Source of the DNA: the human T2T-CHM13v2.0 reference genome, Homo sapiens
Assembly (NCBI RefSeq): GCF_009914755.1
Contig: NC_060925.1
DNA length: 64,000 nt
Reading direction: 5' to 3' (one strand)
The translations under genes and the position numbers were made by a program. Below the pieces are notes generated by a model. That model saw nothing but the letters and a program-made list of their open reading frames with translations. It was not told the DNA's origin and did not search any database. This document shows, piece after piece, positions 6,566 to 45,262 of this stretch (positions are counted from its first letter, which is position 1; every line of letters begins with the position of its first letter).

Positions 6566-7784
6566 TCACCAGGCAGCCACCTTCCCTGCGTCATCTGGAC
6601 GCAGGTGTGGGAGGGGCACAAGCCCTCAAAGAGGAGACCCTTTGAGTCACCTTTCCTTTCAGTGGGGCTGCTGCTCTGTCTCTCTGACATCCACTCTCCA
6701 GCCAGCCTTTTCGAGCATCTACTCAAGGCTACTGCTTTGCTCAAAGGCCCCTGTTGGATGGCCCATCAAGGCCAAAATAAAATCTGGGCTCCTGACGGGG
6801 CCCACAAGCCCTGGAGGCCCATCCCCGCTGCACTCTCCCGCTCACACCACCAGCTTCCATGGCCTTCTCTCCATCCTTCCAGCCCTCCTCAGGGCCCTTG
6901 CTCTTCTGTCCCTCTGCCTGGATGCCACCCCCAGCTCTTTCTGCGGTTGCCTCCTTACTTCCTCAGAGGGGTCGCCCGACCTTCCCACCCAAAGCAGCTC
7001 GCAACCGGAGTTGCCTGTTTGCTCCTCTTGAGAGCAGGAAGCATTGTCTGAAATTGTCTCATGTGTTCATTGTCGGTGTCCAATCCCCCTCTCACGTACA
7101 CTCTAGAACTTTCCCTCCCACACCAGGGATTTCATTCGATTCACTGAAGCCTCCCCGGGGCTGGAACAGTGCCTGGCACCACCAATGAGGCACTCCATAA
7201 ACCTTTGTTGAGTGGTAGAGTCCCAGACACACACTGTGGGAAGGCAACTGGGAGGCTAGGGACCCTCCCGTATGAGCCTATGGCATCAGTGCTGGGCTCT
7301 AACCACTGACCCCACCAGCCTTTGAAGATCATCCGGCCTCTAGCCATGGGCTCCTGTGGGCCTCCTCCAGCTCAGGCCACCCAGCCCAGTGTCCAGGGTG
7401 GCAGCCAGAGACTCAGGCCTCCTCCTGCTGGCTTTCCCTCTAGGTGTCAGGCTTCCCCAGGCGTGGGGGCCGCCGTCCCAGGGCAGCGGCTGCCCGCAGG
7501 GGAACCGCCTGGTAGGGCTGGTGGGGGCTGGTCTTGGAGTCATGGCTCGGATTCGAGAAGGGAAATCATCTGAGCTTTTAAAAAATTAAATGGAGTCAGT
7601 AATTTGATTTCAGAGAGAAGCTGAAAACCTCGTAATGGCAGGAGCAGCTCAGTCTCGTGGTGAAAAGGAAAAGCCTTAAATGGGGCTATTAAGCTTTTGC
7701 CCGGGACGGATCTGCCCGGAGAGGGAGGAGGAGGGAGCGCAGAGGGGGGAGAAGTCTTCTTCGAGGTGGGGACCGTTTATCAGC

Positions 7785-8062
7785 CAAGACAACCCTGATT
7801 ATTTATTTATTTATTTCTTGTTCCGGGCGGGCATTGCCGACGGTCTCCTCTTCTTGGCTGCATTTCAAATCCCACTTCCAGTGATGGGTCTGCCTGGAGG
7901 TGGGCGTCTGGGGGTCCACCTTTCCAGGGAAGCACTGAGTGAGTGCTCTTCCGGCCCAGAACACTGTACCCAGCCACAGCTGGGCATCTAAGCCAGGGAG
8001 CCTGGGGACAGCTGGGTCACTGAGGGTCACTGGGGCTGTCCAAGCCAGCGGGGTACCGGCTG
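7785..8062 (-). other. CIROZ: Probable non-coding terminal (3' UTR) exon of CIROZ
   Basis: The donor at 8963 needs a partner. Candidate branch CTCAT, pyrimidine tract and CAGCAG acceptor at 8065-8060; overlapping AATAAA at 7802-7815 followed by GT-rich sequence. The 3' end is approximate. Confidence 0.7.
7802..7815 (-). terminator. Polyadenylation signal cluster (three overlapping AATAAA)
   Basis: The + strand reads tttatttatttatt; downstream on the minus strand is ggttgtcttggctg. Confidence 0.65.
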
Positions 8063-8915
8063 CTGCCATGGAACCCAGAGGAAGGGAGTTATGAGTAATG
8101 AAAACGAAGCAGTGGCATCCCATTCTCCTCCCCTGGAGTCCTTTAGAGACCTGAGGCCATGGCACCCCAAGGCCTGGGGAGGGGGTAAACACCAAGGGTT
8201 CATATCACCATCACCAACAACCCCCAGAGATGTCTGAACCATGGCTCAGGCCCTCCATGCTTTCCTAGGCCTGCAAGCATCCCCTCTGCCTGGGCCGGGA
8301 GGTGGATGGTGGAATGATCGCCGTAAGAATGGCTCTCGAGTTCTGAGTGCACTGGATGTAGTCCGGCTCCACGCCAAATGCTCTACGTTCCTTTCCCACC
8401 CAACTCTCAACAGCCCCATCGGAAGGAATGATTACCATCCCCATTTGACCCATCAGGAAACTGAGGCTCAGAGAGGTGAGTGCCTTGCCAAGGTCACACA
8501 GCCAAAGAGCAGAGGAACTGGGACTTGAACCTAGCTCCTGGCAGGCCTGGCTGCAAAGCCTGCACCTCACCCTGATGCTTCACCACCTCCGACAGCAGAC
8601 CAAGCCCAGAAACACAGCTGGCAGGGCCAGGGAGAGACCAGGAGACACTGCCCTGCACTCAGCGCCTCTTCCCTCGGGGAGGTCCATGCAGGCAGACGGC
8701 CTGCCGCTTCACCCCTCCCTCTGGGTTCCATGGCAGCAGCTGGTACCCTGCTGGCTTGGATGGCCCCAGTGACTCTCAGTGACCCAGTGCCCCTGGACTC
8801 CCTGGCCTAGATGCCTAGCTGTGGCTGAGCACAGTGATCATCTGGGCCAGAAGAGCACCGGGGCTTCCCTGGAAAGACGGCCCCCAGCCCCCACCTCCAG
8901 GCCGACCCATCACTG
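7879..8915. repeat. Inverted duplication, arms 7879-8086 and 8713-8915, spacer ~626 bp
   Basis: The reverse complement of 7879-8086 aligns by eye with 8713-8915 at roughly 80-85% identity. ORFs 8027..8242(-) and 8476..8772(+) end in near-identical peptides (LWVPWQQxVPxWLGxPQ). Confidence 0.95.
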
Positions 8916-8983
8916 CCTCCCACCCTTTGCACTCTACCTCCCCAGGGTGCACCCAGGACTCACCCTGGAGTCTCCATGGAGGC

Positions 8984-45262
<36,279 letters not shown>

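What the first reader, a model, noticed from the sequence alone, without database searches (positions are those of the whole stretch)
7879..8915. Inverted copy of the terminal exon inside the last intron: a possible RNA hairpin over the final 3' splice site
Seen in sequence: 8713-8915, about 50 nt inside the last intron's donor at 8963, is an inverted ~80-85% identical copy of 7879-8086. That segment covers the pyrimidine tract, the CAGCAG acceptor and most of the putative terminal exon. I do not recognise the arms as any transposon. Inference: in the pre-mRNA a ~200-bp duplex with a ~626-nt loop could mask the last 3' splice site (intron retention, altered polyadenylation), bring donor and acceptor together, and provide a non-Alu ADAR/Dicer/Staufen substrate. 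The duplex would vanish once the intron is spliced, making it a potential switch for a gene used briefly in left-right patterning. The intronic arm also places a copy of the splice acceptor on the + strand.
Basis: partly seen in the sequence, partly recalled or inferred. Interest (0 to 1): 0.8.

Follow-up and report, generated by a model that had tools for sequence, protein, structure and literature searches.

The report
Unique inverted duplication over CIROZ last acceptor
A 205-base stretch covering the last splice acceptor and most of the non-coding last exon of the human CIROZ gene is repeated backwards inside the preceding intron, so the unspliced RNA can fold into a long hairpin, but nothing found here shows the hairpin is more than a by-product of an old local duplication.

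Summary
Window 7879-8086 and 8713-8915 are an inverted pair: 178 of 211 alignment columns are identical and the spacer is 626 nt. In the whole 3.1-Gb assembly each arm matches only itself and its partner. It is therefore a local inverted duplication, not a repeat family. Only the spacer carries a multi-copy element.

The transcribed (minus) strand folds with the long stem in both the minimum-energy and centroid structures. Duplex energy is -393.7 kcal/mol, against -156 ± 9 for 100 shuffles.

No sign of selection on the RNA helix was found:
- 9 of the 18 transitions give G·U and 9 give A·C in the CIROZ transcript.
- The arms differ by 5 indels.
- The unused plus strand would form the longer unbroken helix, 70 bp against 28 bp.

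The stop codon lies 20 nt upstream of this intron and the last exon is non-coding. Any effect would therefore fall on the 3' UTR only.

The "switch" function is unsupported. Dating the duplication across species, editing and intron-retention data could not be obtained here. Interest is modest.

The parts
7879..8086 (-). 3' arm of the hairpin in the CIROZ pre-mRNA. It holds the last 24 nt of intron 12 (8063-8086), the CAGCAG tandem acceptor and the first 184 nt of the non-coding terminal exon.
   Evidence: exon limits from the hub's RefSeq table; sequence read
8713..8915 (-). 5' arm of the hairpin. It is an intronic inverted copy, antisense to the terminal exon in the transcript, and starts 48 nt after the donor.
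8087..8712 (-). 626-nt spacer, the loop of the predicted hairpin. Its 3' edge on the minus strand (about 8087-8110) carries the T-rich tract and the likely branch-point region, which lie just outside the stem.
8394..8563 (.). Multi-copy interspersed element inside the spacer. I name it MIR-like from recall only.
   Evidence: 107 candidates, 40 scored, 39 of them elsewhere in the genome; all cover spacer positions 308-477 at 74-92% identity
8063..8963 (-). Last intron of CIROZ (901 nt), lying wholly in the 3' UTR. The donor reads AGG|GTGAGT and the acceptor CAGCAG.
   Evidence: hub table
7796..8062 (-). Terminal exon, entirely non-coding. Alternative acceptors give exon ends at 8059 and 7919, both inside the arm.
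   Evidence: hub table
8984..8986 (-). TGA stop codon of CIROZ, 20 nt upstream of the last exon-exon junction.
   Evidence: hub table
7802..7815 (-). Three overlapping AATAAA poly(A) signals. They are the only AATAAA or ATTAAA hexamers on the minus strand between 7700 and 9000.

Best explanation
This is an old local inverted duplication, found only at this locus. About 205 bp spanning the intron 12/exon 13 boundary of CIROZ has a partner lying backwards in the same intron, 626 bp away.

Shown: it is not a repeat family. The arms differ by about 12% (K2P).

Inferred: the event is tens of millions of years old and probably arose within primates. A fold-back or template-switch replication or repair event is the likely cause.

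Inferred consequence: once RNA polymerase has passed 7879, the intronic arm (antisense to the exon) can pair with the acceptor arm. The result is an imperfect ~200-bp duplex, with 185 of 211 columns paired and a longest unbroken helix of 28 bp lying exactly over 8059-8086. It covers the 3' part of the pyrimidine tract and all three annotated AG acceptors. The branch-point region stays at the edge of the loop.

This helix would compete with U2AF and the spliceosome and could slow removal of the intron. It would also be a typical ADAR and dsRNA-binding-protein substrate, like an inverted Alu pair. The stop codon lies 20 nt upstream of the junction, so either outcome leaves the protein unchanged. 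Splicing removes one arm. Retention would leave a 3' UTR holding a long double-stranded RNA.

I judge the duplex to be a tolerated by-product and not a selected regulator.
For: - Inverted pair: 178/211 identical, E 1e-54.
- Each arm matches only itself and its partner in the 3.1-Gb assembly: 2 candidates, 2 scored, also at E <= 10. The same search finds the spacer's old repeat at 74-92% identity in 39 other places, which shows its sensitivity.
- The homology ends sharply.
- Of 116 inverted pairs of at least 100 nt with spacers up to 3 kb in the window, this is the only 1 whose arms have no further copy. The rest have a median of 53 copies.
- The minimum-energy (-670.4 kcal/mol) and centroid folds of the minus RNA 7850-8963 both contain the stem.
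- Duplex energy is -393.7 kcal/mol and the net gain over self-folded arms is -212.6. One hundred shuffles give -156.1 ± 9.1.
- Signs of neutrality: 18 transitions split 9 G·U to 9 A·C in the CIROZ RNA; 5 indels cover 11 columns; the minus and plus RNA duplex energies are about equal, -393.7 against -390.8; the longest unbroken helix is 28 bp in the CIROZ RNA but 70 bp in the unused strand.
- The stop codon is 20 nt before the junction, and the only poly(A) hexamers lie at 7802-7815.
Against: - No outgroup genome could be consulted. Age, direction of copying, and whether the arms have been kept similar (gene conversion, compensatory change) are all untested.
- The wobble test rests on only 18 sites.
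- The best-paired stretch in the CIROZ RNA lies exactly over the acceptor (28 bp, 8059-8086), and the inner 75 nt are 92% alike against 83-87% for the three outer pieces. That would fit constraint on a helix there, but the difference is not significant (Fisher p = 0.36). Ordinary constraint on the splice site in one arm explains it as well.
- Passages of PMC8052449 say that complementary regions are depleted over active splice sites in general. A 200-bp duplex over a used acceptor is therefore unusual and might matter.
Confidence: 0.6

Rival explanations
1. The hairpin is a selected regulatory element. It masks the last 3' splice site and so tunes retention of the 3'-UTR intron. That would set CIROZ mRNA export, stability or translation through ADAR, Staufen or paraspeckle-type handling of double-stranded RNA.
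For: - The stem is thermodynamically dominant.
- Its longest perfect helix (28 bp) sits on the acceptor.
- All three annotated acceptors lie inside the arm (hub table).
- In general, double-stranded structure obstructs splice sites and attracts A-to-I editing (PMC8052449, passages read). Inverted repeats in 3' UTRs can cause nuclear retention (listing and abstract starts).
Against: - There is no strand bias toward G·U: 9 against 9.
- Five of the 6 differences in the inner 75 nt are A·C mismatches in the CIROZ RNA.
- The arms differ by 5 indels.
- The hub's table lists no retained-intron isoform.
- The protein is unaffected either way.
- The divergence suggests an origin much later than the gene's role in left-right patterning. 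Passages of PMC13634566 cite a report of expression of the mouse orthologue Gm572 in the left-right organiser.
- The pre-mRNA already holds 115 other nearby inverted pairs in this window.
Confidence: 0.15
2. The duplication gave birth to the exon. The intronic arm is the older copy, and its inverted duplicate happened to supply a pyrimidine tract plus AG in the sense orientation. That created the 3'-UTR intron and the present terminal-exon boundary in a formerly unspliced 3' UTR.
For: - The intron lies wholly in the 3' UTR, starting 20 nt after the stop codon, and the last exon is non-coding (hub table).
- Half of the acceptor's pyrimidine tract and both tandem AGs lie inside the duplicated segment.
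- The duplication is younger than the spacer's old repeat (inference).
Against: The direction of copying cannot be told from one genome. The T-rich tract and likely branch point lie outside the arm. The donor is a strong consensus site, which fits an old intron as well as a new one. No comparative data were available.
Confidence: 0.15
3. The two arms are the terminal inverted repeats of an old DNA transposon spanning 7879-8915, or two oppositely oriented copies of one interspersed repeat family.
For: The arms start with CAGTG and end with CACTG. A 6-nt direct word, TCCCAC, lies near both outer ends.
Against: - No other copy of either arm exists in the assembly, even at E <= 10, although the same search recovers an old repeat at 74% identity.
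- The TCCCAC words are not flush with the arm ends. Words of that length are shared by 76 of 2000 random 15-mer pairs from the region.
- Rfam finds no SINE-like or RNA family in 7879-8915.
- Two independent insertions only 12% apart would imply a young family with many similar copies.
Confidence: 0.05

Closest known systems
Inverted Alu pairs (IRAlus) in introns and 3' UTRs
   Same: Two ~200-300-nt arms about 80-88% alike lie within about 1 kb in one transcript and are predicted to form a long imperfect double-stranded RNA. IRAlus are known targets of ADAR editing and nuclear retention (listing and abstract starts). The window itself holds 115 such multi-copy pairs.
   Different: The arms here occur only at this locus and are not Alu. 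One arm is a used splice acceptor plus exon. The duplex exists only before splicing or in a retained-intron RNA.
Long-range complementary regions in human pre-mRNAs (PCCR catalogue, PMC8052449)
   Same: Intramolecular pairing occurs between distant parts of one pre-mRNA near splice sites. The reported effects are obstruction of splice sites and enrichment of editing (passages read).
   Different: The catalogue's regions are short, conserved across vertebrates, and exclude exons beyond 10 nt and repeats. C1orf127 is not named in that paper's main text: 0 occurrences. Its supplements were not looked at. Here the helix is ~200 bp, covers an active acceptor and its conservation is unknown.
Exon-intron duplexes that guide site-selective ADAR editing (exon paired with an intronic complementary sequence; examples are recalled, not from a call)
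   Same: An exon pairs with a complementary stretch of an adjoining intron. The duplex is lost on splicing, so any editing must come before splicing.
   Different: Those helices are short and conserved and recode a protein. This one is a 200-bp duplication in a non-coding exon, and no editing data were seen.
Template-switch and fold-back inverted duplications (PMC5453318, PMC8794818, PMC3907307)
   Same: A replication or repair error writes a nearby sequence backwards and creates a hairpin-capable inverted repeat in one step (abstract starts; passages of PMC8794818).
   Different: The short template switches described are far smaller; the largest pattern in PMC8794818 was 59 bp. The fold-back duplications of PMC3907307 are very large. 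A 205-bp copy with a 626-bp spacer lies between these scales, and no junction microhomology was shown here.

Membership tests
Interspersed repeat / DNA transposon with terminal inverted repeats | Many dispersed copies of the same sequence in the genome | tested here: not met
   Each arm matches only itself and its partner in the 3.1-Gb assembly (2 candidates, 2 scored). Positive control: the spacer's repeat was found in 39 other places.
Interspersed repeat / DNA transposon with terminal inverted repeats | Target-site duplication flush with the element's ends | tested here: not met
   Only a 6-nt word (TCCCAC) was found, offset from the ends by 3 nt on the left and 2 nt on the right. Words of that length occur in 76 of 2000 random 15-mer pairs.
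Interspersed repeat / DNA transposon with terminal inverted repeats | Match to a curated repeat library (Dfam/Repbase) | not testable with these tools
   No repeat library is available. Rfam gave nothing in 7879-8915 at E <= 1.
Inverted Alu pair (IRAlu) | Both arms are Alu elements | tested here: not met
   The arms are single-copy and have no SRP/Alu-type Rfam match. Alu-like stretches at 10265-10500 do match Metazoa_SRP below the gathering score.
Inverted Alu pair (IRAlu) | Opposite orientation within one transcript at short distance, with a predicted long imperfect duplex | tested here: met
   626-nt spacer. The stem is present in the minimum-energy and centroid folds. 185 of 211 columns are paired.
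Inverted Alu pair (IRAlu) | A-to-I editing or nuclear retention of the RNA | not testable with these tools
   No RNA-seq or editing database is available. One paper holds both 'C1orf127' and 'RNA editing' and was not opened.
Conserved long-range pre-mRNA structure (PCCR type) | Complementary regions within the same pre-mRNA | tested here: met
Conserved long-range pre-mRNA structure (PCCR type) | Conservation across species with compensatory substitutions | not testable with these tools
   No non-human vertebrate genome is held. Within the one genome, 9 G·U against 9 A·C gives no hint of pairing constraint.
Local inverted duplication by fold-back or template switching | An inverted copy lies close to its source and is found only at that locus | tested here: met
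Local inverted duplication by fold-back or template switching | Outgroup lineages carry one arm only; microhomology at the junctions | tested here: inconclusive
   Outgroups are not available. The junction flanks show no similarity beyond chance.

The most novel reading that the evidence does not exclude
A single primate-lineage inverted duplication both created the present last acceptor and 3'-UTR intron of CIROZ and installed a 200-bp self-antisense hairpin. That hairpin would gate removal of the intron (or, through the excised intron, pair in trans with the mature 3' UTR). A gene required for human left-right patterning would thereby gain a lineage-specific, double-stranded-RNA-dependent layer of control.
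Probability: 0.1. Interest if true: 0.55.

Novelty: new member of a known kind. Interest (0 to 1): 0.3.

Why it matters
Recessive CIROZ (C1orf127) variants are reported in heterotaxy and congenital heart disease (abstract start of PMC11912448; passages of PMC13634566). Non-coding features that could change its mRNA output therefore bear on how variants are interpreted.

A locus-unique 200-bp duplex over an active splice acceptor would be a clean natural test case, free of Alu sequence. It could show how long double-stranded RNA competes with splicing and whether ADAR marks an exon before its intron is removed.

If it is only a neutral relic, which I think more likely, it matters mainly as a caution. 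Hairpin potential alone is cheap in human genes: 116 nearby inverted pairs lie in this one window.

Tried and rejected
- Repeat-family origin: rejected on genome-wide copy number, with the spacer search as the sensitivity control.
- A more sensitive profile search using the alignment of both arms: not accepted by the tool and not pursued by another route.
- A larger decayed palindrome: rejected. Outer flanks, spacer halves and the 60-nt junction flanks score within the shuffle range, with 40, 11, 96 and 60 of 200 shuffles reaching the observed scores.
- Target-site duplication: only an offset 6-mer, with a chance frequency of 76 in 2000.
- Known RNA family or microRNA precursor: no Rfam match in 7879-8915 at E <= 1. 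The 4 matches found all lie at 10265-10500.
- Higher identity of the inner 75 nt as a sign of constraint: not significant, 6/75 against 16/125, Fisher p = 0.36.
- Strand asymmetry of duplex energy: none, -393.7 against -390.8 kcal/mol.
- Alternative polyadenylation inside the intron: no AATAAA or ATTAAA on the minus strand within 8063-8963.
- Coding potential: stop-to-stop frames of at least 50 codons are plentiful on both strands of this GC-rich stretch, 25 in 7700-9100, and were not informative.
- Literature: 75 papers hold CIROZ or C1orf127, of which 20 were listed; several match only unrelated words that begin 'ciroz'. None of the listed titles or abstract starts concerns this intron, a hairpin or the 3' UTR. 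PMC13634566 has 0 occurrences of 'UTR', 'intron' or 'isoform'.
- Cross-species dating: no tool holds non-human vertebrate genomes.

Full report
**What is there.** The window is human chr1 (T2T) and the gene is CIROZ (C1orf127) on the minus strand, according to the hub's table. The repeat finder on 7500-9300 returns four inverted pieces, all collinear:
- 8012-8086 / 8713-8787 (75 nt, 92%)
- 7959-8010 / 8788-8839 (52 nt, 83%)
- 7879-7913 / 8881-8915 (35 nt, 86%)
- 7911-7933 / 8863-8885 (23 nt, 87%)

No direct-repeat family was found. Gapped blastn, run with about 30 nt of extra flank on each side, joins the pieces into one alignment of 7879-8086 against the reverse complement of 8713-8915. It has 178 of 211 columns identical, 11 gap columns and E 1e-54, and it stops at those coordinates. 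A global alignment gives 22 substitutions (18 transitions, 4 transversions), 5 indels and a K2P distance of 0.122. MAFFT places the gaps slightly differently: 25 mismatches in 200 aligned columns, 7 of them at CpG sites, and non-CpG divergence of 18/186 = 9.7%.

**Anatomy relative to the gene** (hub table).
- The last intron is 8063-8963 (901 nt). Its donor reads AGG|GTGAGT.
- The acceptor is the tandem CAGCAG at 8060-8065. This matches the two annotated exon ends, 8062 and 8059.
- A third annotated acceptor gives an exon end at 7919.
- The exon-side arm covers 24 nt of intron, all three acceptors and 184 of the 267 nt of the terminal exon.
- The intronic arm begins 48 nt after the donor.
- The T-rich tract and probable branch-point region (about 8087-8110) lie just outside the arm, at the edge of the loop.

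The stop codon is TGA at 8984-8986, 20 nt upstream of the last junction, so this intron is a 3'-UTR intron and the last exon is non-coding. The only AATAAA or ATTAAA hexamers on the minus strand between 7700 and 9000 are the three overlapping ones at 7802-7815.

**Is it a repeat family?** No, as far as these tools can see.
- A search of the whole 3.1-Gb assembly with either arm finds only that arm and its partner. There were 2 candidates, 2 scored, also at E <= 10.
- The same search with the 626-nt spacer yields 107 candidates, of which 40 were scored. Thirty-nine lie elsewhere in the genome, all over spacer positions 308-477 (window about 8394-8563), at 74-92% identity.
- The spacer result shows that the spacer carries an old interspersed element (MIR-like, named from recall). 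It also shows that the search can see old repeats.
- Two independent insertions only 12% apart would imply a young family with many similar copies, and there are none. The arms are therefore related by a local duplication.
- The homology does not continue into the flanks or the spacer.
- A possible target-site duplication (TCCCAC near both ends) is offset from the ends and no rarer than 76 in 2000 random pairs.
- Rfam has nothing in 7879-8915 at E <= 1.
- Within the window, 116 inverted pairs of at least 100 nt with spacers up to 3 kb exist. This is the only 1 whose arms have no other copy. The rest have a median of 53 copies and are Alu-like.

**Can the RNA fold?** Yes.
- The minus-strand RNA 7850-8963 has the long stem in both its minimum-energy (-670.4 kcal/mol) and centroid structures.
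- The two arms as a duplex give -393.7 kcal/mol, a net gain of -212.6 over the self-folded arms. One hundred dinucleotide shuffles of one arm give -156.1 ± 9.1, so z = -26.
- In the CIROZ RNA, 185 of 211 columns pair if G·U is counted. The longest unbroken helices are 28, 20, 20 and 18 bp, and the 28-bp one lies exactly over 8059-8086, that is the acceptor and its tract.

**Is the helix selected?** I found no sign of it.
- A transition between the arms becomes G·U in the RNA of one strand and A·C in the other. The 18 transitions split 9 to 9.
- Duplex energies of the two strands are about equal, -393.7 against -390.8 kcal/mol.
- In the inner 75 nt next to the acceptor, 5 of the 6 differences are A·C mismatches in the CIROZ RNA. 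As a result the unused plus strand would have a 70-bp unbroken helix, against 28 bp for the CIROZ RNA.
- Five indels produce bulges.
- The higher identity of the inner part is not significant (p = 0.36). Ordinary constraint on the splice site in one arm would explain it equally well.
- These tests are weak (18 sites, one genome), but they point to neutrality.

**Age (inference).** Divergence of 10-12% between the arms means about 5-6% per arm. Set against primate neutral divergences as I recall them, that suggests tens of millions of years, roughly around or before the split of Old World monkeys and apes. The event is younger than the spacer's repeat and far younger than the gene. Passages of PMC13634566 cite a report that the mouse orthologue Gm572 is expressed in the left-right organiser. 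No outgroup genome could be consulted, so this is a prediction and not a result.

**Most likely mechanism.** A fold-back or template-switch error copied the intron/exon boundary backwards into the same intron, or the reverse. Direction is unknown. In the nascent transcript the intronic arm is made first. After 626 nt the acceptor arm emerges, and it can either be bound by U2AF and the spliceosome or pair with the intronic arm.
- Inferred effects: some slowing of intron removal, and ADAR editing and helicase action as for inverted Alu pairs.
- The protein is unchanged either way.
- The spliced form has its junction 20 nt after the stop codon. By the recalled 50-55-nt rule that is too close to trigger nonsense-mediated decay.
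- A retained form would carry a long double-stranded RNA in its 3' UTR.
- The hub's table lists no retained-intron form. All alternative last exons lie within 7794-8062.

General support for obstruction of splice sites and for editing in such helices comes from PMC8052449 (passages). That paper also reports that complementary regions are depleted over active splice sites, which makes this case unusual. That paper's main text does not name C1orf127, and its supplements were not looked at.

**Comparison and novelty.** The pair works like an inverted Alu pair or a long-range pre-mRNA helix. It fails the membership test for Alu or any other repeat family. Its origin resembles template-switch or fold-back duplications. 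However, the short events in print are much smaller, the largest being 59 bp in PMC8794818 (passages). The fold-back duplications of PMC3907307 are very large, judging from its title and abstract start only. My searches found no paper on this feature. It is a new instance of a known kind and of modest interest unless comparative or RNA data show constraint or regulated retention.

Noticed in passing
window 8394-8563: The spacer between the arms holds a multi-copy old interspersed element (MIR-like, named from recall). It drew 107 candidates in the genome, of which 40 were scored, at 74-92% identity.
   Followed up: partly
window 8060-8065: The tandem CAGCAG acceptor matches the two annotated exon ends 8062 and 8059. 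In a non-coding exon the 3-nt choice has no coding effect.
   Followed up: partly
window 8964-8986: The CIROZ stop codon (TGA, 8984-8986, minus strand) lies only 20 nt before the last exon junction. The last intron is therefore a 3'-UTR intron, too close to the stop codon to trigger nonsense-mediated decay by the recalled 50-55-nt rule.
   Followed up: partly
window 10943-10944: The donor of the preceding intron (after exon 10945-11135) reads AAA|GCACGT, a non-canonical GC donor. By my count of the coding parts this is c.1290+2. bioRxiv 10.1101/829010 (passage) describes c.1290+2C>T as a variant present at polymorphic frequency.
   Followed up: partly
window 10265-10500: Rfam matches below the gathering score to Metazoa_SRP, mir-1268 and mir-1285 on the + strand. 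From recall, this is the usual signature of Alu elements.
   Followed up: no
window 10274-63822: 115 further inverted pairs of at least 100 nt with spacers up to 3 kb. All are built from multi-copy (Alu-like) arms, so the CIROZ pre-mRNA has abundant other potential for double-stranded RNA.
   Followed up: partly
window 7802-7815: Three overlapping AATAAA signals (TTTATT three times on the + strand) sit at the annotated 3' end of CIROZ.
   Followed up: no
window 7870-7875 and 8918-8923: The direct 6-nt word TCCCAC lies near both outer ends of the inverted pair, offset from the ends. Its chance frequency is 76 in 2000 random pairs.
   Followed up: yes
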